From Candidatus Saccharimonadota bacterium (GTDB taxonomy: Bacteria; Bacillota_I; Bacilli_A; Mycoplasmatales; Hepatoplasmataceae), in assembly GCA_027925225.1 (NCBI GenBank), contig AP027131.1, forward strand, positions 330,001-362,000: DNA of 32,000 nt, in the 5' to 3' direction. The notes beneath the pieces were generated by a model. That model saw nothing but the letters and a program-made list of their open reading frames with translations. It had not been told where the DNA came from and did not search any database. Positions 1 through 32,000 of the stretch are shown in pieces (position 1 is the first letter of the stretch; each line of letters begins with the position of its first letter). The translations under genes and the position numbers were made by a program.

Positions 1-606
1 TAAAATTTGATTTTGATTATTCTCGACTCTACTTAATAAGTATTTTATTTCATTATTTTCTTTTATATTATCATTTCTTTTTTTTGAAGAAGTTTCAAAA
101 ATATTTTTTTCAAAAAATTTAATTTCATAATTAATAATATTTCTTAAATTTAAACTTCCTTTTCCTTTTCTTAAAAAATATTCAAAGTAAATATTTTCTT
201 CTTTTTTGATTTCTAAATTAGAAATAATAGTAATATCACCTTTAAAGTTTGCTTCTATTATTTTTTCTGTTGTTTCTGCTAATTTTCCATTAACATAAAT
301 ATTAAAATCTAAGGTTTTTTTAAATTCATCATTTAAAACATTTTTTAAAGAAATTTTAAAAAATAATTTCCCAAATTCAAGAATTTCAAATTTATTTGGA
401 TTAAGTTTTGTTTTAATGTATTTTTCATCAAAATTAATTATTTTAACTAATTTTGGTCTTATTTTTGTATTTTCTAGAAGTCCTAAAGGTAAAGAAATAT
501 ATTTTCCTGTTATTAATTTTTCTTTATTGGATATACATTTTTCATTACATTTTTTTTTAGATTCTAAAATAGGTTTATCATTTATTTGTTTTTTAATAAT
601 TTTCAT
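1..606 (-). CDS. Fibre-family paralog A, 5' part only (ORF runs off the window start): N-terminal beta-rich domain plus start of coiled coil
   Basis: ATG at 606-604 preceded by AAGGAAAA. Hand translation is open to position 1 (202 codons: MKIIKKQINDKPILESKKK...RVENNQNQIL). Roughly half the positions are identical by eye to the first 200 aa of the 662..1678 product. Absent from the ORF track because it has no stop inside the window. Confidence 0.7.
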   Translation of the reverse strand, partial: MKIIKKQINDKPILESKKKCNEKCISNKEKLITGKYISLPLGLLENTKIRPKLVKIINFDEKYIKTKLNPNKFEILEFGKLFFKISLKNVLNDEFKKTLDFNIYVNGKLAETTEKIIEANFKGDITIISNLEIKKEENIYFEYFLRKGKGSLNLRNIINYEIKFFEKNIFETSSKKRNDNIKENNEIKYLLSRVENNQNQIL

Positions 607-661: not shown

Positions 662-1678
662 TTAACTAATTCTTTTATAAACATATATGTTATATCCAAT
701 TCCCAATCCATAACCGATGTTATATTCAGATCCAACTAAATTTGTATAAGCTAATTTATTTACTAAAGTACCATTGTTAGATCCTATTACAAATGATTTA
801 CCATTTTGAAATGTATTAAAACTTGCAAGAGCAGTATTATCATTCTCTAGATTTTCAATAGTTGTATATTTATTAGATCATATGTGATTATGATTAATAA
901 TATTTCCTCTGCTTGTTACTTTTTCTATTTCACAAATAATTCCTTTTCCTTCATATAATGCTCCCAAATCTTCTCAAACACCATAAGGGGGTTTATTTAA
1001 TCCGCTAATAATAATAGTGCCTATTGGCAATTCCAGATTATCTGCTTTTAATTGAAGTTTTGATAATCTTTTTTTTAAGTTTAAAATTTTGTTTTCATTA
1101 TCAATAATTTGATTTAATAAAATATTTTTTTTGTTATTTTTTATATCATAATTATCATTATTTTCATTTTTTAAAAAATCTTCAAAAAATTTGATTCTAT
1201 AATGAATAGAATTACTTAAATTTAAATTACCCTTTTTTTCTTTTAATGAATAATTAAAATAAATAAAATCTCCTTTTTTAACATTTAAATCAGCAGAAAG
1301 AATAATATTTTTATTAAAATTTTCTTTTATTGGATATTCTACTGTTTTTTCTAGTTTATTGTTTACATAAATATTAAATTCTAGGGTTTTTTTAATTTCA
1401 TCATTTAAAACAGATTTTAAATAAATTTTAAATAAAATTTTACCACATTTAATAATATTAAACTTATTTGGAGAGAGTTGCTCTTTAATATAATTTTCAT
1501 TAAAAGAAATTATTTTTAATAAATTTGGTCTTATTTTTATATTATTTGAAATTTTTAAAGATGAAGAAGTGTATTTGCCTATTATTATTTTTTTCTCATT
1601 GGATACAAATTTTTCATCACCCCTTTTTTTTGATTTTAAAATATATTCATTGTTTATTTTTTCTTTAACAATTTTCAT
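662..1678 (-). CDS. Fibre-family paralog B (338 aa): N-terminal beta-rich domain, Asn/Leu coiled coil, LPIGTIII...PPYGVW junction, ~105-aa C-terminal domain with NHNHIW..YTTI motif
   Basis: Track ORF 974..1678 ends at TGA. Read-through in code 4 (TGA at 974 and 878) continues to TAA at 662-664. Strong RBS AGGAGG 7 nt upstream of the ATG at 1678. The C-terminal extension aligns with the extension of the 1746..2273 gene. Confidence 0.8.
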
Positions 1679-1745: not shown

Positions 1746-2273
1746 TTATGATTCTCTTCTGAAAATTTTTGGAGATGTTCCAATACCAACACCATAAATT
1801 TTGTTGTATATATTATTTTCAATTAATTTTATATTATCAGTCTCAGATGATACAGTTATTTCTGATCCATCTTTTTTACCTAGTCAAAATTGATTTCCAT
1901 TAATATCATAAGTATTAAAACCTGAAAAAGCACTAATTTGCTTATCTAAACTTCCAATGGTTGTATATTCAGTAGTTCATATATGATTATGTTTAATAAT
2001 TGAACCATTTGATGATTCGCCACCTATAATTGTTTGACCACTTTCTAATGTTCCTAATGTTTTTCAAGTGCCAAAAAGCGGAGCTTCTTCTCCTATGATG
2101 ATTGTTCCGATTGGCAATTCTTCATCATCTTCTTGTAATTCTAGTTTTAATATTTGATTTTCTAAATTTAATATTTGATTTTGATTATCGAATATTTTAT
2201 TTAATAAAATATCTAAATCTTTTTCTAATTTTAAATTAGATTTATTATTTGTTTGTTTTTTTATAATTTCCAT
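1746..2273 (-). CDS. Fibre-family paralog C (175 aa): short coiled coil plus LPIGTIII...PLFGTW junction plus the same ~105-aa C-terminal domain (KHNHIWTTEYTTI)
   Basis: Track ORF 2064..2273 plus read-through of TGA at 2064, 1977 and 1884 to TAA at 1746-1748. RBS GGAGG upstream of the ATG at 2273. The C-terminal domain is collinear with paralog B. Confidence 0.75.
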
Positions 2274-6097: not shown

Positions 6098-6144
6098 TTT
6101 TTTCTTTTAATATAATAGTAATTTAATTTTATTATTTTAAATAA

Positions 6145-12548: not shown

Positions 12549-14450
12549 TTAAAAATCATCATCCATATCATTTATTTTTTTTCTATTTTTATATAAATTT
12601 ATTAAATAAAGAGCAAATACAACAATAAAAAATATAGGAATTACTAATAAAATATAGATATAATGGTTTTTTTCTAAATATAATTCTTCGTTTGCAAAAT
12701 AGATTTCATTAGGTTCTTTGTAATTATATTGATAACTTGTTTCATATTTTGTATTTATTAAATTACTTTTACTTCCTATATTATTTGGAATATAAATTTT
12801 AAAATTCGAATAATAAGAATCATTATTTAAATTTATAAGTTTAAATTGATATGTTTTTTGATTTTCGTTTTCACTTACTTTTTTTATTAATTGTAAATTA
12901 TTATAATCACTTGCATATCTTAAATTATCATTAGACTCATAGCTTAAATCTATGTTTTCCATTTGTAGAATTGTTGCATTTTCAAAAGTGACATTAAATG
13001 TTAATTTATCATTTTCTTTATTAATTATTTCTGCATTAATTATTTCTGCATTATTATTTATTGTATTTGAAAATTTAAATGGAAGATAATATGGAGGCAA
13101 ATTTTCATTTTCAAAATAAAAATCTGAATATTCATAACCTTTTTCTTTTTCTACATCATAATTGATCTCATATATCACAACTTTATCATATAAAGTTTCA
13201 ACATAATTAAGTTCAAGACTTTCTTTAATATCATCATTTAAAATATCATTTTTTTTATCATAAAAAATCGATAATGATAAATCACTATTTTCCTCTATTT
13301 TATTTGAGTAATCTACCATTATTTTGATTTTTTTATCATCAGTATATTTTATTATTGGAATATTTTTAATTATAAGATCATCTTTTTTTCAATTTGAGTA
13401 CTCTACTGTTATTGGTATTGTTGATACATAATCTTTTGGTATTAAATTTTTATAGATAAATTTAGGATAAAATTCTTTATCTAAGTAGTTATATTTAAAG
13501 TAATTTGTAGTTTGTATAAAAATATTGTAATTATCTGGTGAAATATTATAAATTTCATATATTAAGTTATCTCCTTTTCTTTCGATAAATTTCATATTTT
13601 TATTAGCGTCGGCCAATGTATAAAAATAAAAATCATTTTTAATTTCTATTTTATTTAAAATTCTTATTGAATTTAATTGATAAGAATTATAAATTTTAGT
13701 TGAAGGATTATAGATATTTATCGTATATGAAAGATAATCATTATTTATATTTTCTGTATAAGAAATACTCTGAGGGTTTATTGTTAGTCTTTCAAAAGAA
13801 GTAAGAACGTGACTATCATTACCATTTATTTTTGATGAAAAAATAGGTTCATTTTCATCATTATAATAAAATTTAAAATCATAATAATCAGTTGCATTAA
13901 ATATTAAATCATCAATTTCATATACATAAAAATGAGTATTTTCATATAAATTTAATTTTGATTTAATTTCTTTTTTAAAAATTAAATTTCCTTGTTGATC
14001 TTCATAAATTTCATTACTATCATATTTTTTATAGTCATAAGTTATTTTTAAATTATCTTTATTTTCAAAAAAATTATCATCATTTGTTACAAAAATAAAA
14101 TCAAATATATCTTTTTGATTACTTATATTTTTATGTTTATATATACTAATTGGATAATAATTATTATCAACATCATAATTTATTTTTTTTATATTTTCTA
14201 AATTGTATTTTAGATTTTTAATAAAAAAATCTCAGTGAGCAAAAATATAATTCACTCCAACTGATCCAACAAAATCTATTAAATATTCTTTTTTATTTAA
14301 AATAAATTCTTTTTCGTTTTTTGTAATTCTTATATTTTTTTCATATAAATCTACATCTTTTTTATAAAAAAGAGTTGAAAAAGAAACTATAAAAACACTA
14401 AGAGTTATAATAGAAAGAAGTAAAATTCTTTTTTTATTATTTAATTTCAT
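12549..14450 (-). CDS. Asn/Tyr/Asp-rich bitopic surface protein (633 aa): N-terminal signal-anchor and C-terminal TM anchor
   Basis: Track ORFs 14232..14450, 13389..13616 and 12549..13319 share a frame. Both gaps were hand-translated and contain no TAA or TAG. N-terminus MKLNNKKRILLLSIITLSVFIVSF; C-terminus YIYILLVIPIFFIVVFALYLINLYKNRKK. Confidence 0.75.
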
Positions 14451-14527: not shown

Positions 14528-16438
14528 ATGAAAAAACTTAATTTAAATAAATATGCATTTCTTTTTTACATAAAAGGTGATTTTTATTGCTGAATACAAA
14601 ACAATGAGAATTTTTTAAATTTAGCAAAAAGAGATGAAGAATTAAAAAAAATAGCACCATGACGTTATAAGTCATTAATTAAAGAAAAAATTAATGATTT
14701 TGAAATTCCTGGACCCATTTTAGATGGACTTGATGTTTCAAAATATTCAAAAATATATTTTAAAAAAAAATATCCAGAATTAGAAATAATAAATTTAGAA
14801 AATGAATCTTTAGAAAAAGCAAAAAATATAACAAATAAATTTTTAGAGGAAAAAAATAATTTTATTATTTTTGAAGCAGTTTTTACTTACAATGAATTTA
14901 CAATCAAAACAGACGTTTTAATAAAAAACAATAATACTTTATATTTGATTGAAGTAAAAGGGGTTACTCAACCTTTTTATTATCATGCGTTAGATATAAT
15001 GTTTCAATATAAAATTCTTAAATCCTTAAAATATAAAATAAATAAAAAAAATTTAAGTTTATTAATTTTAAATAATAATTATATTTATTATAAAAAATCA
15101 AGCATCGAAAATACAATATTGAATTTATTTTTAGAAGTAAAATATTTTTATAATTCAAGAGTTGATTTAACAAATTATTCAAATAATATAAATAAACAAT
15201 TCAATATCTATGATGTTGTTAAAGAAGAAGAGTATTTTAGTTATTTTAATTTTTTTGATTTAATTTTAGAAAAAATTAAAAATGTACAGCTTTTAGAAGA
15301 ACCTCCCATTTCAATTTTTAAAAAAGAAAACTTTAGAGGAATGAATTCTGATTATGAATCTTATTATTTAAAATTAAAGGGTGCAGGTGAAGAAAATTCT
15401 ATTTTTAAATATTCAGGGGATAGTTGATTTAGCAAATGAAAAAAGGCCCTTCTTTTTGAAGAAGGTTTTAAAACAATAGAATCAATTGAAAATAAAAAAC
15501 TTATTTCAAAAAATAAAATAAAAAAATTAGAACCAGAGATAATGAGTTGAATCTCAAAAAATCCACAAAATATTATCCCTGACAATAAAAAATCTTTTGA
15601 AAGAATGATAATAGAAGAAAATGCAAATACCTTTAAAAGAATTATTCAAAGAAATAGTTATATGAATAAACATACTATTTTTTTTGAAGAAAAAATAAAA
15701 AAATTTTTAAATAATTTTAAAAAAGTTATTTATATGTTTGATTTTGAAACAGTACAAAATTCTATTCCTAGAATTTATGAAACTTCTCCTTATGAACAAG
15801 TTCCTTATCAATATTCAATTCATGTTATTTTAGATAAAGACAATTTTGATTTTTACAATATGAAAAATGTTATCCATCTTGAATGATTAGCTACAGAAAA
15901 AGATTTTTATGATGAATTTTGAAAAAATTTTTTAAATGATATACAAAAATATGGAGAAGGAAGTTATGTTTCTTTTAATAAATCATTTGAAAATATGATT
16001 ATTAAAAGAAGAATTCAAAAAATGATTTATGGTGATCCTATTTATTTTATGGAAAAACTAATAGATGAAACAATAGATTTAATGATTCCTTTTTATAATA
16101 AATGATATTATCATAATGATTTTGAAGGAAGATATAGTATAAAGGTAATAGCTCCCCATTTTGCGCCAGAATTAAATTATAAGGATTTAGATAGCAGAGT
16201 ACAAAAAGGTGATCAATCAGCAAAGCAATGCAAAATTTGACTTATGAATGAAAATGAAAAAATTGCAGAAAAAACATGAAAGGATGTAAGAAAATCAATG
16301 CTTAAATATTGTATGTATGATACTCTTTCAATGGTTGTAATTTTTCAAAGATTACAGGAATTAGTTAAATATGGTGTAGTTATTAATAATGAAAAAATAA
16401 GAAATAAAGAGGAAAGTTTATGAACACAGAAAAAATAA
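14528..16438 (+). CDS. DUF2779-family protein (PD-(D/E)xK nuclease-like, 636 aa)
   Basis: Motifs typical of DUF2779 as I recall the family: TDVLIKNNNTLYLIEVKGVT, YMFDFETVQNSIPRIYETSPYEQVPYQYSIH, YSIKVIAPHF and LKYCMYDTLSMV. Track ORFs 14945..15427 and 15605..15886 are in frame with the ATG at 14528 and are joined by TGA codons. Confidence 0.75.
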
Positions 16439-17437: not shown

Positions 17438-18775
17438 ATGAAAAATAAAACTACAAGAACATTTTTATTTTTATCATTTTTATCAATTTTAGTTGTTCTA
17501 AATTTTTCAACACAAAATTATAAATATAATGATAATTTTTCTCTTTCTAAAAAAAATGAAAATAATTCTTTAAATTATAATGCTGAAGCTACTCCTTATA
17601 TCGTAGGAGACAGTTTAAAATGTAATTTAATTACAAATGACACTTTTGAATATCAAATGGAAGTTATTGGTAATTTTGCTAATAATGAAAATATGAGTGT
17701 AACAATAAATGGTGATGATCAACCCTTTAAAACCGCAAAAAGGATTGATACTGATGATAATGATAATATTTATGTTTATGAGGTTGAAAATTTAAATTAT
17801 TCCACTGATTATGATTTTTTTTCTTTAAATAATACTGGTCTTGCATATTATTCGCCCAATAATTTTATAGACAATGAAATTGAATTAAAAAATGAAGCAA
17901 ATATTGAAAACACTAGTTTCAAAACAAATCAAAATCCAATACTTACAGATTTTTGAATAAATGAAGATTCAATAACAACAACAACAATAACTTTTGGAAT
18001 TACTTTATATAATTATTCTGATGTTCACTTAGATATTGAAGATTCAATTAATTTATCACTAGAAAAAAAATCTACTGGAGAATATAAAACTTATAATGCA
18101 TCATTAATTTCTTCTGAAGGAGAATTAGGAAAAAAAGGAGAAATTAGTCTTACATATAAAATTGAAAACTTAGAACCCAATACAACTTATAAATTTATTT
18201 CGCTTAATAACACTAATCTTGCTATTACCTCAGGGAATAATCCAATAGATAATGAAATTTTAATAGAAGAAGAATTAAAGTTTAATAATAATGAATTTAC
18301 AACAGTATATTCAAATCCTTTTATTTCAAGCGGTGGTTTTAAAATAACAAATACACATGGAACAGTTGTTGAATTTTCACTTGAAATAACTGATGATTAT
18401 AATAATTTTAATTACTACAATCCTTTAAAAGTTAAATTAAATGATAAAAATGGAGAAATTGTTACAGCTCAATTTATAGATAAAAATGAAAATAAATATT
18501 ATTATCAAATTTCGGGATTAGAAGAAAATACAACTTATAGTATTTATTCATTAATTGATACTAATTTAGCAATAGAAGGTAATGGAAATGTTGTTGATGA
18601 AGAAATTTTAATAGAAGAAGAATTAGGGGTTTTAGATAATAATTTTACAACAGAAAAAATGGATAGTATTGAACTCGATGGAATGCCTGTGTACTGATTT
18701 CCAATAATTTTTGGAATATTTATTTTAATTGTTGCTGTTTTTATAGGATATAAAGTTAAAAAAAATAATATTTAA
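17438..18775 (+). CDS. Repeat-containing bitopic surface protein (445 aa): signal-anchor, three ~125-aa internal repeats, C-terminal TM anchor
   Basis: Track ORF 17438..17956 reads through TGA (17954 and 18695) to TAA at 18773-18775. The repeat core recurs three times: Y.Y.I.(N/G)LE.NTTY...SL..TNLAI....N..D.EILIEEEL....N.FTT. C-terminus FPIIFGIFILIVAVFIGYKVKKNNI. Confidence 0.75.
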
Positions 18776-21959: not shown

Positions 21960-21996
21960 TATATTAAAATTTATTTTATAAATTTAATAGAAAAAA

Positions 21997-22026
21997 CCCT
22001 TAATAATTAAGTATTAAGGGTTTTTT
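21997..22026 (+). terminator. Rho-independent terminator after the permease: CCCTTAATA-attaag-TATTAAGGG followed by T6
   Basis: 9-bp perfect stem and a T-run, 38 nt after the stop. Confidence 0.7.
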
Positions 22027-22094
22027 ATTTTTAATATTTTAAAACATTATAAAGGATATATTTTAACAAGTAAATTAATGCTATATTTTTTTAA

Positions 22095-22500
22095 TAAAAG
22101 TCCTTATTTTAGATGTATTTGCCATTAATAATGAAGAAATAGCTATTGGTAAAAATGTTTTAGTTATTTTTGTAACATGAAGAAGACATAATAACTATGA
22201 AGATATAATTATTCTTTATGAAAGACTTGTAAAAGGTAATATTTATACTTCTTTTTGTATAGGAAAACATCGTTTATAACAAAGAATAAAAAAACTTGGT
22301 GAAGAAAAAAATAACAAGAGATATTCCTAATTCCTATAAATAATCAATGCGTAATTTAGATGGTGAAGAAATTATTTTTGTTGATTCTGAAATAAAAGTC
22401 GAAGGTGTTCTTATCGGAAAAATAACTTCAAAAGGTGTGAAAGCGATCTCTCTCCAGAAGAAAAACCTTTAGATATAATTCTTTGAAATAAAACTCTGAT
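22095..22500 (+). pseudogene. rpoB: Degraded fragment of rpoB (RNA polymerase beta subunit, central region of ~130 codons)
   Basis: Hand translation gives EIAIGKNVLVIFVTW(TGA)RRHNNYEDIIILYERLVKGNIYTSF. Compare the conserved RpoB block ELALG.NV.V.FM.W.GYN.EDAII.SERLVK.D.YTSIHI. It then reads ITRDIPNSYK*SMRNLDGEEIIFVDSEIKVEGVLIGKITSKGV; compare ITRDIPNV.E.AL.NLD..GI..IGAEV..GD.LVGKVTPKG. It is broken by TAA/TAG stops and at least two frameshifts, and no start or flanking rpoB sequence is present. Confidence 0.7.
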
Positions 22501-22538
22501 GTAATTAATTTTTTTAAATTTTAATTATATTAAAAAAA

Positions 22539-22568
22539 ATCTCAATAATAAGATATTGAGATTTTTTT
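22539..22568. terminator. Bidirectional terminator: A7, ATCTCAATA-ataaga-TATTGAGAT, T6. On the minus strand it terminates the giant fibre gene
   Basis: 9-bp perfect stem with an A-run and a T-run on either side. It lies 31 nt downstream (minus sense) of the TAA at 22599-22601. Confidence 0.7.
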
Positions 22569-22598: not shown

Positions 22599-23375
22599 TT
22601 AAGATTTTCTTTTATAAATATTTAGATTAATAGAATCATTTTTATCATTTAATAAAGTTTTAATTAAAAATCAGTTTCCGTATTTAGGTAAAACTCCATT
22701 ACTTATAATAACACTACCCACCGGAAGCATTAATTTATTAATCATTAAAATTAATAAATCTAATTGTTTTTGTAAATTAATAATTTCTAGACTTTCATTA
22801 TTTAAAACGCTTTCTGTGATTCTATTTAATTTAAGATTTAATTCTTTTAAATCTGCTTTATTAGCTTTTGTTTTTAAAGCATTATCAACATAAATTTTGG
22901 GAGTTGGATTTGTATTTTTTGTTGGCATTAAAATTTTATTTTTTTCATCAACAATATCTACTCCGTTTGTAAGGATTCTTAATTTTGTAAAACTTTCTGT
23001 TTTATCATCAATATTTTTAATATATGGATAAGAATAATTCTCATCATAATTAAATGATCCTAATTTATCAATATTTTTGTCATTTAAAGAAAATTGAATT
23101 GATTTATTATTTACTAATTTTTCTAATTTTATCAATCTTCAATTTATATTTTTATTTACTTTTGCTTGACTTATTCCACCTTCTAAAAAATTATTTGCTG
23201 TTGGTATTTCTAAAGTGCTTAAAATAGAAACACTATCTTTTAAAATGTGATTAAATCCATAAATAGATATATTATTTAAATTTTCATCAGCAATATTAAG
23301 AGTACCAGTTAATTCACTTGTTATTGTAAATGAACTTCTTCCATCTATTGAAAATACATTTTCGATATTTAGCAC
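22599..23375 (-). CDS. 3'-terminal remainder of the giant fibre gene (~258 codons from GTG 23375): end of head module 4 plus the family C-terminal cassette. Separated from the main ORF by the frameshifted segment
   Basis: Track ORFs 23139..23375 and 22671..23135 share the frame of the giant ORF and are joined by TGA. Read-through of TGA at 22671 gives ...MLPVGSVIISNGVLPKYGNWFLIKTLLNDKNDSINLNIYKRKS then TAA at 22599. Frame 0 is open upstream only to the TAA at 23475-23477. Independent translation is unproven. Confidence 0.5.
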
Positions 23376-24245
23376 TAATGAGTTTGTTGGAATTAGAATT
23401 CCAGCTAAAGTATTGTTTATATAATAAGAAACAAATATAAATTGATAATTACATCATGTTTCAGAAAATGAGAGATTATTGCCATTTAAAACTGAAATTT
23501 CATTTAATTGACGATTATTTTTAAATCCTCATATTCCAGTTAAAGATGAATCACTAGTTGTAAAATCAGTTTTATTAGTAAAAGTTAAATATTGTAATGT
23601 TCCAAAATAATTCATTGCAACATTTGAAAATATTTTATCTGTTTTTACAATATTAAAAGTTGTTTGTTGATTATTTGTTACTTGAGATTTAATTATTAAA
23701 AAATCATAATTTAAATAACTTTCACTCAATGTTGTATTGGTTCCATCATTAAGATGTGTACTTGGGAAAGAATAAGTAGAAATTTTTTCTATTCCTTGAA
23801 ATTTATTATTTGTAATTAAAGATTTATTAAATTTTTTAAATTTAATTTCATGATCAGAAACAACATTCATATAAAAACCATAATAATTTGGATTATCATC
23901 ATTATTATTAATATCACAAATACTATTATTAACATTTTCTCCAACTAAACTAAAACCACCATTTTTAAAATAATTTATATTTGCATCACTTGTTACAGAT
24001 TTAAAGAAATAAATATTATTATTTGTTATTGAATTAAATGATGTTCTTGAAGATAAACCTGCATTTTGTCCAGAAATTAAATTTGTTTCCTCAAACTCTT
24101 CTTCATCTGCAATTTTACCTACTAAATTATTTATTTTAATTTCAAAAGTATTAATAGCATTATGAATGCCAACATGGGCATTTGCATTTTCTACATTTAA
24201 ATTTTTTTGAATATTAGAATTTTCAGAAATTGATTCTAAAGAAGA
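23142..24245 (-). repeat. Head module 4 (~368 aa, SSLESISENSNIQ ... GISQAKVNKNIN), carrying the two frameshifts
   Basis: Same block order. The homologous peptide KNNRQLNEISVLNGNNLSFSE is encoded in the +1 frame between 23462 and 23517. Confidence 0.75.
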
Positions 24246-27200
24246 ATTTTCACTTAATAAAAGAGAAGTAATATTTAATTTTCAAGGTCATTCTCTAATC
24301 GTTACATCATTTAAAGTAAGCTTTGGATAATTATAATTTCCTTCTTTTATTGTTGTTAATTCTGATACATTTGTTTCGCCTTGAATTAAATAAGGGTTCA
24401 TTCCTCTAGATGAATTTGTATCACTATCATCAATTAGTTTTGATGTAGAGATTTTTATTACTGTTGTTCCACTTATTATTCCTGCTACTTCTGTATTTAA
24501 AGTATCTAATTCTGTACTTAAACTTTCTATATCTGTTGTATTTGTCTGAGTTTGAATTAAATAAGGGTTTATTCCGTCATCTGGATTTGTAACACTATCA
24601 TCTTCTAATGCTGATGTATTAGGTGTTGTTGTTATTACTGTTGTTCCATTTGTTATTCCTTCAACTTCTGTACTTAAAGTGTCTACTTCTGTATTTAAAC
24701 TTTCTATATCTGTTGTATTTGTTTGGGCTTGAATTAAATATGAATTTATTCCGTCATCTGGATTTGTAGCACTATCATCTTGTAATGTTGATGTATTAGG
24801 TGTTGTTGTTATTACTGTTGTTCCACTTGTTATTCCTTCAACTTCTGTACTTAAAGCATCTATTTCTGTTGTATTTGTTTGAGCTTGAACTAAATAAGGA
24901 TTTATCCCTTCATCTGGATTTGTAGCACTATCATCTTGTAATGTTGATGTATTGGGTGTTGTTGTTATTACTGTTGTTCCACTTGTTATTCCTTCAACTT
25001 CTGTACTTAAAGCATCTATTTCTGTATTTAAACTTTCTATATCTGTTGTATTTGTTTGAACTTGAACTAAATAAGGATTTATTCCTTCGGTTGGATTTGT
25101 AGCACTATCATCTTCCATAGATGAAGATGATGATAATATTTCTATGCCTGAAGGTCATTCATCTATTGCTTCTCCATTAATAATTAATTGCGGATAATTA
25201 TAAAGGCCTTCCTCTATTATTATTAATTGAGCACGATTATTTATTATATCGTCTTGAGTTTTATTAAAATCTGATTTATTAACTTTGGTTTCAATATTTA
25301 AAATATTTTCATCAATTTGTGTTTTTCAAGGATTTATTCCTTCTGTTGGATTTATAGCACTATCATCTGTAATTTTTGAAGAAATAGAAGTTACAAAAAG
25401 AGGATCTGTTCCGTCTATTATTCCTGTTATTGTATCATCTAAAGATGAAATTTCTGTATCTAAAGTATCTACTTCTGTATTTAAATTTTCTATATCTGTA
25501 GCATTTGTCTGAGTTTGAATTAAATAAGGATTTATTCCTTCAGTTGGATTTTCACTGCTATCATCAATAACTAAAGAACTTAAAGATTTTTTTGTTATAG
25601 GTATTGTCCCATTTTTTATTCCTGTTAATTCTGTATTTAAAGTTTCAACTTCTGTATTTAAATTTGTTATATTTTGAGTATTTTCTTGATTTTGAATTAA
25701 ATAAGGATTTATTCCTTCGGTTGGATTTTCACTGCTATCATCTACTAATTCAGAAGAAGATGGAATATCTTCCTCTGAAGGTCATGATTCTATTATCTCT
25801 TCATTTAATTTTAATTGAGGAAAGTTATAATCACCTTCTTTTATTAATTCTAAATCTTCAGTATTTTGAGTAACAATTGTATTCATTTCATCTAAATCTA
25901 ATTGATTTGCTTTTGTTGATATATTTAATTTATTTTCATCAAGTTGTGTTTTTCAAGTATTTATTCCTTCTGTTGGATTTTCACTACTATCATCTGTAAC
26001 TAACGAACTTAAAGAATTTTTTGCTGTAGGTATTGTTCCGTCTATTATTCCTGATACTTCTGTATTTAAAGAATCTACTTCTGTATTTAAATTTTCTATA
26101 TCTGTAGCATTTGTCTGAGTTTGAATTAAATAAGGATTTATTCCTTCTGTTGGATTTGTAGTACTATCATCTGCAACTAATGAACTTAAAGAATTTTCTG
26201 CAATAGGTATTGTTCCGTCTATTATTCCTGCTACTTCTGTATTTAAAATATCTATTTCAGAACTTAAATTTGTTATATTATCTGTATTTTCTTGAACTTG
26301 AATTAAATAAGGATTTATTCCTTCTGTTGGATTTTCATCACTATCAATTATTAATGAAGAAGTATTTGGAGTAGTTTCAATAGGTATTGTTCCGTCTATT
26401 ATTCCTGTTACTTCTGTATTTATAGTATCTATTTCGGTGTTTAAATTATTCATTTTTATATTTAAGGAATCTATGTTTGTAGTATTTTCTTGTCCTTGAA
26501 TTAAATAAGGATTTATTTCTTTGGTTGGATTTTCATCACTATCATCAGAAATTAAGCCTGAATATATTAAATTCCCTTGATTTCATGTTTTTATTAAATA
26601 ATTATTTAATATCAACTGAGGATAATTATATGTTCCATTTTTTATTAAAATTAAATCTGCAGTGTTTTGAACAATATCTCCATTTATTGAACATAAATCT
26701 GATTGATCAATTTTTTCTTCATTTAAATACATTAAACTATTTTGCACATTTTCATTAACTTCAGCTTGATTGCTTCCGCCTTCAAGTATGCTAAAAACTG
26801 TTGGTATTTTTGATGTATTTAAACTAGAAATTGCATCTTTTAAAATATGATTAAGTCCATAAATTTCTACATTGCTTAATTTTCAACTAATATTATTGAA
26901 AGTTCCTTCTAATTCATTTATTAATTTAAATGAACTTCTTGCATCGATTGAAAACCTATTATTATTATTTAATATTATTGAATTTGTTGGAATTAAAATT
27001 CCTGATAATTTATTATCAATATAATAAGAAACAAAAATAAATTGATAATTAGTTCATGTTTCTGAAAATGAAAAATTAATATCACTTAAAACTGCAATTC
27101 TATTTAACTGATGATTATTTTTAAAGCCTCATATTCCAAGCAATGAAGAATCACTAGCAATAAAATCTGTTTCATTAGTAAAAGTTAAATATTGTAATGT

Positions 27201-30200
27201 TCCAAAATAATTCGTTGCAACACTAGAAACAATTTTATCTGTTTTTACAATATTAAAAGTAGTTTGTTGATTGTTTGCTACTTGAGATTTAATTATTAAA
27301 AAATCATAATTTAAATAGCTTTCACTTAATGATGTATTAGTTCTATCATTAAGTTGAATATTAGAAAAAGGATATGCAGAAATTCTTTCTATACCTGTAA
27401 AACTGTTGGTTGTATTTGAAGACGGAGTAAATTTTGTAAAGGTAATGTCATAATCAGATATAACACTAGAATAAAAACCAAAATAAGCTGAATTTTCACT
27501 ATTTGTAGTATTATAGGAAATATTATTAATTTTTTCTCCAATTGAATTTATACCTGCATTTCTTAAAAAATCTGTAGTTTTATCGCCTGTTGAAGATTTT
27601 AAAAAATAAACATTATTATCTGTTATTGGATAAGGTAATGTTTTTTCAGTTAGACTTGGGGCTTGCTCTGAAATTATATTAATTTCTTCAATTGGTTCTT
27701 CATCTGTAATTTTACCTTTTAGATTTTTTATTCTATCTTCTAAAATATCAAAAGTATTATGAATAACTAAATGATCATTGACATTTTCTTGATTTATTAT
27801 TTCTTGATTTATTGCTGTTCCTGTAATCGACTCTAAAGAGGAATCAGTTGCTTTTACAAAAGAAGTATCTTTTGCTTCATCTTCTAAAAATCATTTTGTA
27901 ATTGTTTGCCCGTCTAAAATTAATTGTGGATAATCAAAAGTTCCTTCCTTTATTGTTGTTAGATCTGAATTATTTTTTTCAACAATTAAATTTGTTTCAT
28001 CTAAATTAATTTGATCTGATTTTAATAAAATATCTGCTTCATTTTTATCAATTTGTGTTAAATTTGGATTTATTCCCAGCATAGGATTAATCTCTTTATC
28101 GTCAGTCACTAAACCTGAATATATTGAATTTTCTAAATTTCATGTTTTTATTACATAATTATTCAAAGTAAGTTGAGGATAATCATAAATACCAGTTTTT
28201 ATTGATGTTAAATAATTTTGTACATTTTCATTAATTTCCGCTTGATTGTTTCCGCCCTCTAATGTACTATTTGATATTGATATTTTTGAAGTACCAACAC
28301 TAGAAACTCAATCATTTCAAATATGATTAAATCCATAAATTTCTATATCAGTCAATTTACCATCATTATCAACTAAAATACCTTCAAAATCACTTATTAA
28401 TGTAAGATGATTTCTTCCATCTAATGAAAATGTAATCCCTTTATTTAACACTATTGAATTTGTTGGAACTAAAAGACCACCTAAAACTCCACTTATGTAA
28501 TAAGAAATAAAGATAAATTGATAATTAGTTCATGTTTCTGAAAAAATAAAATTTGCATCATTTAAAATTGCAATTTTTTCTAATTTACGAGTATTTTTAA
28601 ATCCTCATATTCCAAGTAATGATGAATCATTCATTATAAAATCTGTTTCATTAGTAAAAGTTAAATATTTTAATGTACCAATATAACTCATTCCAACATC
28701 AGAAATTATTTTATCTGTTTTTACAATATCAAAAATAATTTGTTGATTAACTTGTATTTGAGATTTAATTATTAAAAAATCATAATTTAAATAACTTTCA
28801 CTTAATGTTGTAGTTGTTCTATCATTAAGTTTAGTATTTAAAAAAGAATATCCTGAGATTTTTTCTACTCCTTGAACATCATTACTGGCATTTAAAGGTT
28901 TAGCAAATTTTCCAAAAGTAACATCATTATCAGAAACAACATGCATATAAAAACCATGATAATTTGAATCATTAGAAGAATCTGGATTATGATGTGCATT
29001 AGTAAGATTTTCTCCTATTAAATTTAATCCAAAATTTAAAAAACCGTCTGGATTTTTAGTAATATAAATAAAATTATTTTCTGTTATTGGAAAAAGTAAT
29101 GTTTTTTCATTAAAACTTGGAGACTGTTCTGGTAATAGAATAATTTCTTCAATTTCATCTTCATCTGCAATTTTACCCATTATATTATTTGCTTCTAATT
29201 TTAAATCATTAATAGCATCATGAATAGATAAATGATTATTAACATTTTCCTTATTTACTGCCTCTTGATTTATTTCAGTTTGAGAAATTGATTCCAAAGA
29301 AGAATTGAAAAGCGAAAGAAGTGAAGTATTTCCTGTTCAATCTTCTGAACTTCAATTATTAATTAATTCTCCATTTAAATTAAGTTGAGGATAATTATAA
29401 GTTCCTTCTTTTATTTTTAATAAATCTGAACTATTTTGATTAACAACTGTGTTTATTTCATCAAAATTAGTTTGGTTTGCTTTTAAGGAAACATTTTCTA
29501 AGTTTGTATTTATTTGTGTTAAAAGTGGATTTATTCCTAATGTAGGATTAATATCAATATCATCAGTTATTTCACTAGAAGTTGGGGGTTCTTCTGAATT
29601 CCCTAAGGGTCATGTTGTAATTACTTCATTATTTAAAGTAAGCTGAGAATAATCATAAGTTCCAGTTTTTATTTCTGATAAATCAGTTTGTACATTTTCA
29701 TTAACTTCTTGTTGATTTTCTCCATCTTCAGATGTACTATCAACTGTTGGTATTTTTGATGTATTTAAACTAGAATCTTTATCTTTTAAAATATGATTAA
29801 GACCATAAATTTCTACATTACTTAATTTATTGTCAATATTATTAAAAGTACCTTCTATTTGATTTTCTAATGTAAATGAACTTCTACCATCTATTGAAAA
29901 TATATTTTTATTTTTTATTATTAATGAATTTGTTGGAATTAAAATTCCTGATAATTTACTATCGATATAATAAGAAACAAAAATAAATTGATAATTTTTT
30001 CATGTTTCTGAAAATGAAAAATTAGTATCACTTAAAATTGCAATTCTATTTAATTGATTAGTATTTTTTAATCCTCATATTTCAAGTAAAGAAGAATCAC
30101 TAATTGTAAAATCTTTTTCATTAGTAAAAGTTAAATATTGTAATACTCCAAAATAATTAATTGCAACATCAGAAATTATTTTATCTGTTTTTACAATATT

Positions 30201-31115
30201 AAAAGTTGTTTGATTATTGTTTGCTATTTTAGATTTAAAAATTAAAAAATCATAATTTGAATAATTTTCACTTAATGTTGTATTAGTTCTATCATTAAGT
30301 AATTTGTAATCAGGAAAAGAATACCCAGAAATTTTTTCTATACCTGTAAAAATATTATTTAAATTTGAGGGTTGAGCAAATTTTGTAAAAGTAATATCAT
30401 AATCAGAAATAATACTCATATAAAAACCATAATAGTTTGAATTATTACTATTTGCAGAATTATAAGAAATATTATTAACCTTTTCTCCAATTAAGTTTAA
30501 TCATCCATTTTTAAAGAAATCTGTAGTTTTATCATTTGTTGTAGATTTAAAAAAATAAATATTATTATCTGTTATTGAAAAGGGTAATATTTTTTCAGTT
30601 AGACTTGCATCTTGATCTGGAATTAATTGAATTTCTTCTATTTCTTTTTCATCTTCTGTTTTTCCAGCTATACTATCAATTCCTATTTTTAAGGAATTAA
30701 AAGTATTGTGGATTTTTTTGTGTTCATTAACATTTTCTTCATTTGCTGTTTTTTGATTTAAAGCAACACCAGAAAGTGATTCTAACGAAGAATCAAAAAG
30801 AGAAACAGAAGAAGTGTCTATTTCTACTTCATTTTCAGATAATTTATTAATTTTTTTATTATTTAAAAATTTTTTTGATTGATTAAAAACTTCATTCCTA
30901 ACTTTAATTAAATTTGTGTCATTTTCGGCACTTTTAATATTAATATTATTTAAACTAGTTTGATTTGTTTTAATATTAATATTTTCTAATTCTTTTACAT
31001 CTAATTTTTTAAAAGGCTTAGAAAACATTTGATTTTCATTTTTTTTAATTGGTGTAAAATTATTATTTTCTTTATTTAAATTTTCGAATTTATTTGTTGT
31101 TTTTTTTAATTTCAT
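23514..31115 (-). CDS. Giant modular fibre-like protein, intact reading frame of 2533 codons (conceptually 2838 codons to 22599 if two 1-nt indels are corrected)
   Basis: Nine track ORFs (30501..31115 down to 22671..23135) all lie in the same minus-strand frame. I hand-translated every gap: 30420-30500, 29298-30074, 28110-28604, 26454-27890, 25119-25952 and 23871-24287. They contain only TGA codons, no TAA or TAG. ATG at 31115 with RBS AGAGGAGAT. The first true stop is TAA at 23514-23516. Confidence 0.8.
24288..26546 (-). repeat. Stalk array: 12 tandem coding repeats of 52-85 aa, each starting (D/S/T)xNPxxGINPYLxQ
   Basis: Nine a-type units: NPTEGINPYLIQ.Q.NT.DI..LNTE.D.L.TEV.GI..GT..I, followed by a Ser/Thr linker and DDS. 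Two b-type units: NPTEGINxWKTQ.DEN...IKEG.YN(Y/F)PQL.LN...I..W. One hybrid last unit. The 3'-most four a-units (24480-25115) are nearly identical at the DNA level. Confidence 0.85.
26742..27842 (-). repeat. Head module 3 (~367 aa, SSLESITGTAINQ ... NQAEVNENVQ)
   Basis: Same block order. It starts 1461 nt downstream of the module 2 start. Confidence 0.8.
28218..29303 (-). repeat. Head module 2 (~362 aa, SSLESISQTEINQ ... NQAEINENVQ)
   Basis: Same block order as module 1. It starts 1488 nt downstream of the module 1 start. Confidence 0.8.
29688..30791 (-). repeat. Head module 1 of the giant protein (~368 aa, SSLESLSGVALNQ ... QQEVNENVQ)
   Basis: Collinear with modules 2-4. Shared blocks: IH..FN/ coiled segment, EEI.LIP.Q..SL.EK.LP..IT.NN.YF, N.YYGFY...SD.D.TF.KF, G.EKISGYSF, LNDRT.TTLSE.Y.NYDFLI.KS, F.IVKTDKI.S, L.YLTFTN..DF...DSSL..IWG.KN, FSETW.NYQFIF.SYYI, PTNS, FS.DGR, EIYG.NHI. 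Confidence 0.8.
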
Positions 31116-31154
31116 ATCTCCTCTTTTAAAATATGTTTTTAAATAATTTATTTT

Positions 31155-31183
31155 ATTTTAAAAATAAATATCACACATAACAA
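31155..31183 (-). promoter_or_regulatory. Candidate promoter of the giant gene: -35 TTGTTA (31183-31178), 17 nt spacer, -10 TAAAAT (31160-31155)
   Basis: Motif match and spacing only, in a very AT-rich spacer. About 40 nt upstream of the ATG at 31115. Confidence 0.25.
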
Positions 31184-31425
31184 AGTAAAAAATAATAATC
31201 AATAATTAACAAAAAGAAATTATTTCATTATTAAATTAACATAATATATTTTGACTTAAAAAGTCTTGTTTTTATATTCTAGTTTATATTTTATTGAATT
31301 AAATTTTTTTATCTTATATTTAAAATTAAATCTAAAAATTCAATCAACATAATTTTAATATGTTTTTAAATTATTTATATTAAATAATGTAAAAAAATAA
31401 TTTTAAATTAAAAAAATAAAAAAAA

Positions 31426-31447
31426 GAAGTTTAACTTCTTTTTTTTT
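31426..31447 (-). terminator. Terminator between the upstream fibre gene and the giant gene: A-run, GAAGT-tta-ACTTC, T-run
   Basis: 5-bp stem flanked by A8 and T9. It lies 20 nt downstream (minus sense) of the TAG at 31468-31470. The stem is short, so the call is weak. Confidence 0.4.
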
Positions 31448-31467: not shown

Positions 31468-32000
31468 CTAAGATTTTCTTATATAAACATTTAAATTATT
31501 TATTTCATTTTTGCTTAAATTATTATCATTTGATAATTTTTTTACTAAAGATCAATTACCATAATTTGGTAAATATTTATCACCAACAATGATACTACCT
31601 ATTGGAAGCATTAAATTATCAACCATAGATACTAATGAATTTATTTGTGTTTGTAAATTAGTAATAATATTATTATTTTTATTTAGGACATCTCTTTTAA
31701 TTTGATTTATTTGTAAATAAAATCTTCTTAAATCTGTTTTATTTAATTTTTCTGCTAAAAGATTATCAACATAAAGTTTAGATGTTATATTTGAATCTGA
31801 TTTTGGTAATAATGCATTACCATTTCCGTCAATAATATCTACTCCTGTTGTTAGAACTCTTAATTCTGCAACATTTCCATTTTTATTATCAAAATTTTTA
31901 ATAAATGGAGAAGCGTCAACATCATTATAACCAAATAATTTCATTTCATCATTTTCATTATTATTTAAAGAAGTAGGAATTACTTCACTATTTATTGATC
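31468..32000 (-). CDS. Fibre-family member, 3' part only (ORF enters from beyond the window end); the C-terminal ~150 aa are homologous to the giant protein C-terminus
   Basis: Track ORF 31552..31944 has no stop upstream of its ATG out to position 32000. Read-through of TGA at 31552 gives ...MLPIGSIIVGDKYLPNYGNWSLVKKLSNDNNLSKNEINNLNVYIRKS then TAG at 31468. It aligns with the giant C-terminus (LRVLTTGVDIIDG / LRILTNGVDIVDE; KLYVDNLL / KIYVDNAL). Confidence 0.75.

What the first reader, a model, noticed from the sequence alone, without database searches (positions are those of the whole stretch)
22599..31115. Giant (~2838-codon) modular fibre-like gene: four head modules, a 12-unit stalk repeat and a tail-fibre-like C-terminus
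Nine separate track ORFs are in fact one minus-strand reading frame once TGA is read as Trp. I checked every gap codon by codon. The product has a striking architecture.
- N-terminus: an Asn/Lys-rich stretch of ~108 aa with no hydrophobic signal, lipobox or TM segment.
- Super-repeat: three copies of a ~490-aa unit. Each unit is a ~365-aa head module plus a linker carrying one or two copies of a 21-aa motif IK(E/T)G.Y(N/D)YPQL.LN...I..W.
- Stalk: a ~750-aa region of 12 NPxxGINPYLxQ...LNTE.D.L.TEV.GI repeats (heptad-like, probably coiled-coil or beta-helical).
- Fourth head module.
- C-terminus: a 150-aa cassette with P..K(I/L)YVDN...K..K.DL, a long Asn/Leu coiled coil and the tip LP(V/I)GS(V/I)I...LP.YGNW.

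The YVD motif, the coiled coil and the P-[IV]-G-[ST]-I-[IV]...P-x-G-W tip are, from memory, the organisation of phage tail fibres and tail-collar (PF07484-type) receptor-binding proteins. A protein carrying four divergent putative binding heads on one fibre, in a wall-less minimal bacterium and without any export signal, fits no Mollicutes adhesin or lipoprotein family that I recognise.
Basis: partly seen in the sequence, partly recalled or inferred. Interest (0 to 1): 0.9.

Follow-up and report, generated by a model that had tools for sequence, protein, structure and literature searches.

The report
Giant fibre-like protein of an isopod symbiont
The 8.5-kb reading frame is a real gene of the woodlouse gut symbiont 'Candidatus Hepatoplasma vulgare', already published as a giant repetitive gene. 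It most likely makes a long three-stranded fibre carrying four copies of a binding-type domain seen nowhere else, and how a wall-less cell would export it is unknown.

Summary
It is HPAVJP_3220 of the Ca. Hepatoplasma vulgare MAG. The next gene upstream is a collinear 60%-identical paralog of 2,877 aa. Kawato et al. 2024 reported such giant repetitive ORFs, could not model them and suggested adhesins.

The ~360-aa head is an orphan: a profile search of 1.84 billion proteins returned only the gene itself, and AlphaFold2 failed (pLDDT 38). The stalk is not an orphan. Its 59-aa unit matches the stalk of the Salmonella trimeric autotransporter adhesin SadA (E 2.5e-5). The longer unit matches NadA and OMP100 beta-layer segments. 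The C-terminal KIYVDN motif resembles the short-neck-like element of a prophage tail-fibre hyaluronidase.

The C-terminal coiled coil and LPxG...YGxW end is shared with three small neighbouring genes. One of these has a confidently modelled TNF/C1q-like trimer domain.

No link to PF07484 tail collar, phage proteins or phage genes was found. There is no signal peptide, lipobox or membrane segment.

Best reading: a homotrimeric, multi-headed adhesion fibre with an unknown export route. It is a new variant of a known kind, of moderate interest.

The parts
22599..31115 (-). Complete CDS of HPAVJP_3220: 2,838 codons plus TAA, genetic code 4
   Evidence: 100% identical to P0001, named 'MAG: hypothetical protein HPAVJP_3220 [Candidatus Hepatoplasma vulgare]'.
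31118..31124 (-). Ribosome-binding site AGAGGAG, 2 nt before the ATG
   Evidence: Sequence read directly.
31155..31183 (-). Promoter-like site TTGTTA-17-TAAAAT upstream of the gene (consensus match only)
   Evidence: The number of such sites in the region is not above the shuffled expectation, so this is only a candidate.
30816..31115 (-). N-terminal Asn/Lys-rich region (aa 1-100). Net charge +7, no hydrophobic segment, only 30% identical to the paralog.
29706..30815 (-). Head module 1 (aa 101-470)
   Evidence: Eight-head alignment. Orphan domain.
29328..29705 (-). Linker 1 (aa 471-596): IKxGxYDY motif, B-type NPxxGINP unit with KANQTNF beta-layer-like motif, second IKEG motif
28236..29327 (-). 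Head module 2 (aa 597-960)
27867..28235 (-). Linker 2 (aa 961-1083), same layout as linker 1
26766..27866 (-). Head module 3 (aa 1084-1450)
   Evidence: Best-scoring stretch in the profile search.
26556..26765 (-). Linker 3 (aa 1451-1520) with one IKNGTYNYPQL motif
24270..26555 (-). Stalk (aa 1521-2282): twelve NPxxGINPYLxQ units. Nine are A-type (3-4 heptads LNTEVDT, then GIIDGTxP...), two are B-type, one is short. Net charge -112. The DNA holds 177-bp and 156-bp tandem repeats that are 82-93% identical.
   Evidence: A-type profile versus SadA stalk 2yo3/2yo0, E 2.5e-5.
23196..24269 (-). Head module 4 (aa 2283-2640)
22911..23195 (-). C-terminal region part 1 (aa 2641-2735). Fold unknown, 39% identical to the paralog.
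22725..22910 (-). Short-neck-like PKIYVDN, KANKADL beta-layer-like motif and the longest heptad segment (aa 2736-2797)
22602..22724 (-). C-terminal cap LPVGSVIIS..LPKYGNW...NIYKRKS (aa 2798-2838), shared with the small paralog family
22532..22568 (-). Hairpin plus T-run terminator just after the stop codon
   Evidence: read from sequence; too A+T-rich for the scanner.
31468..32000 (-). 3' end (last 176 codons) of the tandem paralog HPAVJP_3230 (P0002, 2,877 aa, 60% identical, same module order and counts). It runs off the window.
31418..31447 (-). Terminator hairpin of the upstream paralog, which makes the two giant genes separate transcription units
662..1678 (-). HPAVJP_3020 (338 aa), a small relative: TNF/C1q-like N-domain, coiled coil, then an LPIGTIIIS..PPYGVW..HNHIW..YKRIS end. 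It shares the giant's C-terminal module.
1746..2273 (-). 175-aa relative with only the coiled coil and the C-terminal domain
1..606 (-). 5' part of a third small relative (TNF/C1q-like N-domain), cut by the window edge

Best explanation
HPAVJP_3220 is an intact, separately transcribed gene of the extracellular woodlouse midgut-gland symbiont Ca. Hepatoplasma vulgare.

Structure (inferred). It most likely encodes a homotrimeric 'beads-on-a-string' fibre. By analogy with trimeric autotransporter adhesins of similar size, the fibre would be of the order of 200 nm long (own knowledge, not computed).

Parts of the fibre.
- Short three-stranded coiled-coil segments are broken by beta-layers and non-helical connectors. 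Together they form a segmented stalk.
- Four copies of a lineage-specific ~360-aa head sit along the stalk: a helix followed by a beta-rich part. These would be the ligand-binding modules.
- The C-terminal cassette has a short-neck-like KIYVDN, a ~48-aa coiled coil and an LPxG...YGxW cap. I infer that it sets the trimer register and nucleates folding, as C-terminal domains do in phage fibres, fibritin and collagens. It may also dock the fibre.
- Small neighbouring proteins reuse the same cassette, mounting a TNF/C1q-like head instead.

Function (inferred). Multivalent attachment of the symbiont to the host brush border or to luminal ligands.

Shown: the gene, its architecture, its orphan status, the stalk similarity to adhesin stalks, the shared C-terminal module and the TNF/C1q-like fold of the small relative.
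Inferred: trimer state, binding role, surface location.
Unknown: how a protein without any export signal leaves a wall-less cell.
For: - Real gene. Its own RBS and terminator.
- Identity and tandem collinear paralog. Only 63 gap columns in about 2,880 aligned positions.
- Stalk A-unit profile hits SadA trimeric-adhesin stalk fragments 2yo3/2yo0 at E 2.5e-5 and 3.4e-5. The match is 17/40 identical and ungapped, and it includes the post-helix GIxDG..I.TT part. The next hits are other trimeric fibres: paramyxovirus F and reovirus sigma-1.
- B-unit profile has as its top hits NadA (0.014) and the OMP100 beta-layer construct 5app (0.015).
- The profile of the C-terminal family hits only trimeric coiled coils: SadA fusions, beta-layer constructs and SlaB.
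- Motif counts are far above shuffles: 15 LNTEV heptads against 0.18 expected, and 5 K[AVS][ND][KQ]x[DN][LFM] against 0.04.
- Hartmann et al. 2016 (PMC4786415) show that IENKADKAD-type inserts form beta-layers in trimers. They list 'ATKAYVDKA' of HylP1 as a TAA short-neck homolog.
- The small relative that shares the C-terminal module has a confidently modelled N-domain (pLDDT 77-95). It matches the trimer-forming TNF/C1q/BclA fold at Foldseek E about 5e-7, TM 0.6-0.66.
- Biology: Hepatoplasma lives extracellularly and attaches to the microvillar brush border (PMC5033963).
- Kawato et al. 2024 proposed adhesin roles for the giant ORFs.
- Failure of monomer AlphaFold2 on the head is what intertwined trimers often give (inference).
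Against: - There is no signal peptide, lipobox or credible membrane segment. The only hydrophobic 19-mer (2787-2805) contains N, K, P and G, and it is less hydrophobic in the paralogs.
- By contrast, two neighbouring repeat proteins do carry an N-terminal signal or membrane segment plus a C-terminal membrane anchor.
- Trimer state rests on 40-75-aa similarities and motif resemblance. No multimer model could be run.
- The head has no homolog and no usable model, so a binding function is a guess.
- There are no expression or localisation data.
- dN/dS is uninformative: control paralog families in the window give the same values.
Confidence: 0.45

Rival explanations
1. Intracellular scaffold. The fibre stays in the cytoplasm and builds or stiffens the stalk-like cytoplasmic appendage that Hepatoplasma inserts between host microvilli. 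The large signal-less coiled-coil proteins of the Mycoplasma pneumoniae attachment organelle (HMW2) would be the precedent (own knowledge).
For: - There is no export signal of any kind, whereas neighbouring surface-type proteins have them.
- Hepatoplasma forms stalk-like cytoplasmic appendages (PMC5033963).
- Both termini are basic and the body is very acidic.
- Module number is strictly conserved between the paralogs, as expected for a length-defining scaffold.
Against: - The sibling proteins that share the C-terminal module carry a TNF/C1q-like head. In known cases that fold is a surface or extracellular binding domain.
- The stalk resembles adhesin stalks, not cytoskeletal coiled coils.
- The heptad segments are only 3-4 heptads long.
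- The heads are absent from the other Hepatoplasma species searched, although at least H. crinochetorum forms stalks too.
Confidence: 0.2
2. Phage-derived fibre. The gene is a tail fibre or receptor-binding protein of a prophage, tailocin or other particle, or a domesticated descendant. It is assembled in the cytoplasm and released by lysis, and its C-terminus is a tail-collar-type tip.
For: - Lack of a signal peptide is normal for phage fibres.
- The KxYVD short-neck-like motif occurs in the HylP1 prophage tail fibre.
- The motif pattern P-x-G-x-I...P-x-G-(x)-W, followed by HxH in the small relatives, looks like gp12-type collars (sequence inspection).
- C1q/TNF-like heads are common at phage fibre tips.
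- The stalk gives a summed PHROGs score to phrog_473 'virion structural protein' (E 4.6e-9), but no single stretch is significant.
Against: - No PF07484 hit at E<=5.
- The tip profile misses all collar chains in the PDB, while a collar-like control finds T4 gp12 and others.
- tblastn against 50,697 phage records gives nothing for the C-terminus or the small relative. The stalk gives only chance hits inside a genuine terminase gene.
- Four IMG/VR scans found no relative.
- The window holds housekeeping genes and no capsid, tail, terminase or integrase gene.
- The phrog_473 score is built from repeated heptads.
Confidence: 0.12
3. Released multivalent agglutinin. The fibre is not anchored. It is shed by lysis or vesicles into the gland lumen, where its four heads cross-link host glycans, food particles or competing microbes.
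For: - No anchor of any kind is found.
- There are four near-identical heads per chain, so twelve per trimer. That would give high avidity.
- TNF/C1q-like siblings resemble soluble lectins such as BC2L-C.
Against: No direct evidence. The C-terminal module conserved across otherwise different proteins suggests a common docking or assembly role.
Confidence: 0.1
4. Functionless repetitive ORF. It is a drifting, recently expanded repeat gene with no selected function.
For: - Apparent dN/dS is 0.55-1.0.
- The DNA tandem repeats are recent.
- It is an orphan.
Against: - Two paralogs of about 8.6 kb each stay open in a 21% G+C genome, where a stop is expected about every 12 codons.
- About 95 head positions are invariant across the eight heads.
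- Module order is strictly conserved.
- The same dN/dS is seen in unrelated paralog families, so it reflects the method or the genome.
- The genome is reduced to 662 kb.
Confidence: 0.05

Closest known systems
Trimeric autotransporter adhesins (SadA, NadA, OMP100, BadA, AtaA): head-stalk-anchor fibres of Gram-negative bacteria
   Same: - Giant size and several heads interspersed with segmented coiled-coil stalks.
- The stalk unit is similar in sequence to the SadA stalk (E 2.5e-5).
- KA(N/D)KxDL beta-layer-like motifs as in NadA and OMP100 (PMC4786415).
- Heads lie N-terminal to a conserved C-terminal module.
   Different: - No Sec signal peptide and no YadA-type beta-barrel anchor. There is no outer membrane to hold one.
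- No YadA head, stalk or anchor Pfam hit.
- The heads are an unrelated orphan domain.
Phage tail fibres and fibritin-type fibres (HylP1 hyaluronidase fibre, T4 gp12, T4 fibritin)
   Same: - No signal peptide.
- Trimer-type coiled coil with beta-layers.
- KxYVD short-neck-like element as in HylP1.
- A small C-terminal domain after the last coiled coil could set the register, as the fibritin foldon does (own knowledge).
   Different: - No detectable sequence relation to any phage protein or to the PF07484 collar.
- No phage genes nearby.
- Four internal heads are not a phage-fibre layout.
Giant repetitive ORFs of other Hepatoplasmataceae (HCTKY_2320, HPPSJP_2240/2440, TYPL_3910; Kawato et al. 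2024)
   Same: - Same family of symbionts, with tandem clusters of very large repetitive genes.
- A proposed adhesin role.
   Different: Those are modelled as tandem Ig-like or other beta-sandwich arrays. The H. vulgare proteins could not be modelled. Here they show coiled-coil and beta-layer stalk units and an orphan head with no relative in other species.
C1q/TNF-headed trimeric fibres (BclA, ExsFA, Bdellovibrio Bd2734 fibre tip, phage C1q tips)
   Same: The small relatives at window 1-2273 have this head fold and share the giant's C-terminal module.
   Different: - In the small relatives the head is N-terminal rather than C-terminal.
- The giant's own heads show no profile similarity to it (hhalign probability 0.8%).
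Mycoplasma pneumoniae HMW2 and DUF16 (MPN010) coiled-coil proteins
   Same: - Mollicute proteins without signal peptides.
- MPN010 is a coiled coil with beta-layers (Table 2 of PMC4786415).
   Different: - No Pfam DUF16 hit.
- Those proteins lack globular heads.
- HMW2 is a long continuous coiled coil (own knowledge).

Membership tests
Phage tail collar domain (PF07484) | Match to the Pfam model at or near its gathering score | tested here: not met
   No PF07484 hit at E<=1 for the giant, or at E<=5 for the giant's C-terminus and three relatives.
Phage tail collar domain (PF07484) | Sequence relation to solved collar domains (T4 gp12 1ocy/1pdi/5iv5, 8kec, 9cuy, 5lye) | tested here: not met
   The profile of five C-terminal modules finds only coiled coils at E<=10. 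A collar-like control query finds those chains at E 4.5e-7 to 0.01.
Phage tail collar domain (PF07484) | Collar fold of the domain after the coiled coil | tested here: inconclusive
   The AlphaFold2 model of the small relative has pLDDT about 25 in that region. The giant keeps only about 40 aa of it.
Phage tail fibre / prophage element | Similarity to phage proteins | tested here: not met
   tblastn against 50,697 phage records: none, or chance hits in a terminase gene. IMG/VR scans with four profiles: none. PHROGs: only summed heptad scores.
Phage tail fibre / prophage element | Neighbouring virion, lysis or integration genes | tested here: not met
   The window holds hrcA-grpE-dnaK-dnaJ, fmt, rpsT, holA, an amino-acid permease and membrane proteins. 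The rest of the genome was not available.
Trimeric autotransporter adhesins | Stalk of trimer-type coiled-coil segments with connectors | tested here: met
   A-unit profile versus SadA 2yo3/2yo0, E 2.5e-5. B-unit versus NadA and OMP100, E about 0.015. Heptad segments. Trimer state itself was not tested.
Trimeric autotransporter adhesins | N-terminal Sec signal peptide | tested here: not met
   The N-terminus is Lys/Asn-rich with no hydrophobic stretch. The start is fixed by an upstream stop and the RBS.
Trimeric autotransporter adhesins | C-terminal YadA-type beta-barrel anchor (PF03895) | tested here: not met
   No Pfam hit. The host has no outer membrane.
Mollicutes lipoproteins / membrane-anchored adhesins | Lipobox or membrane segment | tested here: not met
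   There is no Cys in the first 1,474 residues. The best 19-aa hydropathy window (2.01) contains N, K, P and G and is not conserved as hydrophobic in the paralogs.
Giant repetitive ORFs of Hepatoplasmataceae (Kawato et al. 2024) | Very large repetitive ORFs in tandem in a Hepatoplasmataceae genome | tested here: met
   HPAVJP_3220 (2,838 aa) and HPAVJP_3230 (2,877 aa) are adjacent on the same strand. The paper describes 3-4 such ORFs per genome. Locus tags are not given in the text or the held supplement.
C1q/TNF-like jelly-roll domain | Fold match of the giant's head modules | tested here: not met
   The head model is unusable (pLDDT 38; Foldseek E>=0.06). hhalign of heads against the TNF-like N-domain of the small relatives gives probability 0.8%.
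C1q/TNF-like jelly-roll domain | Fold match of the small relative HPAVJP_3020 N-domain | tested here: met
   pLDDT 77-95 over residues 30-167. Matches EDA, C1q, BclA, ExsFA and BC2L-C at E about 5e-7, TM 0.6-0.66. Matches phage C1q tips at E about 1e-8.

The most novel reading that the evidence does not exclude
A wall-less symbiont has a Sec-independent fibre-display system. A shared C-terminal cassette (coiled coil plus the LPxG...YGxW...YxKRxS end) would trimerise and dock interchangeable payloads onto the cell surface or onto an as yet unseen particle. The payloads would be giant fibres with four orphan heads and small proteins with TNF/C1q heads. That would be a third solution to fibre display, beside autotransporters and phage baseplates, and the orphan head would be a new binding fold.
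Probability: 0.18. Interest if true: 0.8.

Novelty: new variant of a known kind. Interest (0 to 1): 0.5.

Why it matters
Hepatoplasma is the dominant, uncultured midgut-gland symbiont of woodlice, and how it holds on to the brush border is unknown. These two genes take up about 2.6% of a 662-kb genome, so they are probably important.

If the product is an external trimeric fibre, it is a candidate attachment organelle. It would also pose a clear question: how does a cell with a single membrane export and anchor an 8,500-residue trimer that carries no signal peptide?

The head domain has no relative among 1.84 billion proteins and resists structure prediction, so it could be a new fold.

The finding also shows that the sequence vocabulary of trimeric autotransporter stalks occurs outside Gram-negative bacteria.

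Tried and rejected
- Pfam, PHROGs, NCBIfam and PADLOC scans of all modules gave nothing beyond summed coiled-coil scores.
- PDB sequence searches with the heads, the C-terminus and the small relative gave nothing. The raw 782-aa stalk also gave nothing. Only repeat-unit profiles worked.
- A word-indexed search with the head alignment returned nothing, not even the query itself. I treat that as a tool limitation. The exhaustive profile search replaced it.
- AlphaFold2 of the head gave pLDDT 38, and its Foldseek hits are meaningless.
- AlphaFold2 of the small relative resolved only the N-domain and the helix, not the C-terminal domain.
- The weak tblastn hits of the stalk in Streptococcus phages lie inside a genuine terminase gene, so I rejected them as chance.
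- Scans of genome contigs (two), metagenome contigs (two) and viral contigs (four) found no relatives. The source genome itself is evidently not in genome contigs.
- A look-up of the paralog's contig failed, so the region upstream of HPAVJP_3230 was not seen.
- I rejected a C-terminal tail anchor. The hydrophobic stretch is interrupted by N, K, P and G and is not conserved.
- I dropped dN/dS as evidence of diversifying selection after control paralogs gave the same values.
- The giant's heads are not related to the TNF-like domain of the small relatives.
- Resemblances of 'GTYDYPQL' to influenza HA2 and to the adhesin neck motif 'DAVNxxQL', and of 'YGNWFLIKTLL' to the fibritin foldon, are too short to test. 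I do not use them as evidence.

Full report
**What is there**

Translating window 31115->22599 with genetic code 4 gives 2,838 codons ending in TAA. There are 26 in-frame TGA codons and no internal TAA or TAG. Under code 11 the frame breaks into exactly nine minus-strand ORFs of at least 60 aa, all in one frame. In nine genes of the window every Trp codon is TGA and none is TGG. The window is 20.8% G+C, so an open frame of 8.5 kb cannot be chance.

The ATG is fixed by a stop 14 codons upstream and an AGAGGAG ribosome-binding site at 31118-31124. A hairpin terminator follows the stop at 22532-22568. The upstream gene has its own terminator at 31418-31447. The gene is therefore its own transcription unit.

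**Identity and prior knowledge**

The protein is 100% identical to 'hypothetical protein HPAVJP_3220' of the Candidatus Hepatoplasma vulgare metagenome-assembled genome, a 662-kb contig. The gene whose last 176 codons occupy 31468-32000 is HPAVJP_3230, at 2,877 aa and 60% identity.

Kawato et al. [quoted passage not shown] They found Ig-like arrays in the other species, reported that the H. vulgare units 'could not be accurately predicted', and suggested adhesins. No later paper treats them. The single-gene reading and the repetitiveness are thus already public. The fold, function and relationships are not.

**Architecture**

- A basic Asn/Lys-rich N-terminus of about 100 aa.
- Three super-repeats of about 490 aa, each a ~360-aa head plus a linker.
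- A stalk with twelve NPxxGINPYLxQ units.
- A fourth head.
- A 198-aa C-terminal region.

The eight heads of the two paralogs are 54-73% identical, with about 95 invariant positions.

The units are of two kinds. A-type units (52-66 aa) have 'GINPYLIQTQTNTTDIE', one to three LNTEVDT heptads, then 'GIIDGTxP..TT..SS'. B-type units replace the heptads with 'N.S.KANQxDLDE.N..V.QN..DL' and end in IKEGxYNYPQLxLNG..I..W. So the stalk is a chain of 3-4-heptad segments separated by about 34 non-helical residues, not one long coiled coil.

The paralog has the same number and order of every element, with only 63 gap columns in about 2,880 aligned positions. At the DNA level the stalk contains 177-bp and 156-bp tandem repeats that are 82-93% identical.

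**Homology**

The head is an orphan.
- A profile of the eight heads, searched by HMMER against 1.84 billion representative proteins, returned only the protein itself.
- Pfam, PHROGs, NCBIfam, PADLOC and the PDB give nothing.
- AlphaFold2 with the eight-sequence alignment gave pLDDT 38. It shows a helix at head residues 19-49 and a beta-rich second half, and its Foldseek matches are noise.

The stalk does have relatives.
- A profile of twelve A-type units hits SadA stalk fragments at E 2.5e-5 and 3.4e-5. SadA is the Salmonella trimeric autotransporter adhesin (PDB 2yo3, 2yo0). The match is 40 ungapped residues with 17 identities, and it runs past the heptads into the connector. The next hits are the paramyxovirus F core and reovirus sigma-1, both trimeric.
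- A profile of eight B-type units has as top hits the Neisseria adhesin NadA (E 0.014) and the OMP100 construct 5app (E 0.015), aligned over 'KADKxxLDE'.
- Hartmann et al. 2016 (PMC4786415) solved that OMP100 segment. They showed that IENKADKAD forms a beta-layer, in which the three chains cross within a trimeric coiled coil. Their Table 2 lists 'DPTANDHAATKAYVDKAISELKKL' of the prophage tail-fibre hyaluronidase HylP1 as a 'TAA short neck homolog'.
- The giant's C-terminus reads 'NTNPTPKIYVDNALKTKANKADLKEL', which combines both motifs. These motifs are far more frequent than in shuffled sequence.

**The C-terminal module and its small relatives**

The last part of the giant is a coiled coil, LPVGSVIIS..LPKYGNW, then ...NIYKRKS. 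It aligns with the ends of three small minus-strand genes at window 1-2273. The full-length one is HPAVJP_3020 (338 aa). Its only close homolog (49% identical) lies on a Logan contig from run ERR14127475, next to a second copy and lepA.

These small proteins keep about 110 further residues with an HNHIW motif that the giants lack. AlphaFold2 models the N-domain of HPAVJP_3020 confidently (pLDDT 77-95), followed by a helix. Foldseek places the N-domain in the TNF/C1q/BclA jelly-roll fold (E about 5e-7, TM 0.6-0.66). The matches include lectin BC2L-C, a Bdellovibrio fibre tip and many phage C1q tips. That fold assembles as trimers in the matched structures.

One C-terminal cassette therefore serves both a small trimer-type protein and the giants. 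That fits a role in trimer registration or docking rather than in specific receptor binding. The giant's heads are unrelated to this TNF-like domain.

**Testing the phage and tail-collar idea**

- PF07484 is not hit even at E<=5.
- The tip-family profile finds only coiled coils in the PDB. A collar-like control sequence retrieves T4 gp12 and four other fibre chains.
- tblastn against 50,697 phage records finds nothing for the C-terminus or HPAVJP_3020. For the stalk it finds only E>=0.1 hits inside a genuine terminase gene.
- Four IMG/VR scans found no relative.
- The window carries housekeeping and membrane-protein genes and no virion genes.
- The motif pattern PxGxI...PxG(x)W with HxH does look collar-like. 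The fold of that region could not be modelled, so a remote relation is not excluded, only unsupported.

**Export and location**

The giant has no signal peptide, no lipobox (the first Cys is residue 1475) and no credible membrane segment. Both termini are basic (+7, +9) and the rest is acidic, with the stalk at -112. Two neighbouring repeat proteins (12549-14450 and 17438-18775) do have an N-terminal signal or membrane segment and a C-terminal membrane anchor. The absence in the giant is therefore real and not a habit of this genome.

Hepatoplasma lives extracellularly in the gland lumen and attaches to the microvillar border through stalk-like cytoplasmic appendages (PMC5033963). That leaves both an external adhesin and an internal scaffold plausible.

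**Selection**

Nei-Gojobori dN/dS is 0.55-0.95 among the four heads and 1.0 for the C-terminal 172 codons between the paralogs. Unrelated paralog families in the same window give 0.64-0.93. I therefore draw no conclusion from it.

**Verdict**

The specific tail-collar or phage assignment is not supported, and the nearest sequence relatives are bacterial trimeric-adhesin stalks.

My best explanation (0.45) is a homotrimeric, four-headed adhesion fibre. Its C-terminal cassette would set the trimer register, and its export route is unknown. The rivals are an internal appendage scaffold (0.2), a phage-derived fibre (0.12), a shed agglutinin (0.1) and a functionless repeat ORF (0.05).

The gene is already annotated and was noted in print. 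What is new here:
- the link between the stalk and trimeric-adhesin stalks;
- the shared C-terminal module with TNF/C1q-headed small proteins;
- the demonstration that the head is a true orphan.

I rate it a new variant of a known kind, interest 0.5.

Noticed in passing
window 1-2273 (-): ORFs 1-606, 662-1678, 1746-2273: Three small paralogs without signal peptides. The layout is a TNF/C1q-like jelly-roll N-domain (AlphaFold2 pLDDT 77-95, Foldseek E about 5e-7), a coiled coil, then an LPIGTIII..P.YG.W..LG...HNHIW...GIG..Y.KR.S domain of unknown fold. The head sits at the N-terminus, the reverse of C1q, BclA and phage tips. Two orthologs lie on Logan contig L001 (run ERR14127475) beside lepA.
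   Followed up: partly
window 3085-6879 (-), and 2423-3070 (+): Four paralogous polytopic membrane proteins (348, 251, 253 and 244 aa) with no Pfam match lie just upstream of the small TNF-like genes. A fifth unrelated membrane protein is on the other strand. Whether they form an exporter for the signal-less proteins is untested.
   Followed up: partly
window 12549-14450 (-) and 17438-18775 (+): Two repeat-rich proteins (633 and 445 aa) have an N-terminal signal or membrane segment and a C-terminal membrane anchor. The second gives weak fibronectin-III-like scores. They look like conventional surface proteins of this organism and contrast with the giant gene.
   Followed up: partly
window 22030-22530: A spacer of about 0.5 kb lies between the amino-acid permease terminator (21991-22026) and the giant gene's terminator. 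It holds + strand ORF fragments split between two frames, possibly a decayed gene.
   Followed up: no
giant protein aa 482-2270 (eight sites), e.g. window 26622-26645: The motif IK(E/N)GTY(N/D)YPQL closely resembles 'VKNGTYDYPKY' of influenza haemagglutinin HA2. That produced dozens of weak PDB hits (E 0.6-10). It is probably chance or convergence at the foot of a trimeric coiled coil.
   Followed up: partly
window-wide (nine genes checked): Every tryptophan codon is TGA and none is TGG. This is an extreme form of code-4 usage, in keeping with 20.8% G+C.
   Followed up: yes
window 14528-16438 (+): A 636-aa protein with a DUF2779 domain (E 3e-28) and a weak NERD nuclease-related match lies between the surface-protein gene and fmt.
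   Followed up: no
window 4551-6879, 1-2273 and 22599-31115: Nei-Gojobori dN/dS is 0.55-1.0 for every paralog family tested in this window, including membrane proteins. Such values cannot be read as diversifying selection in this genome.
   Followed up: yes
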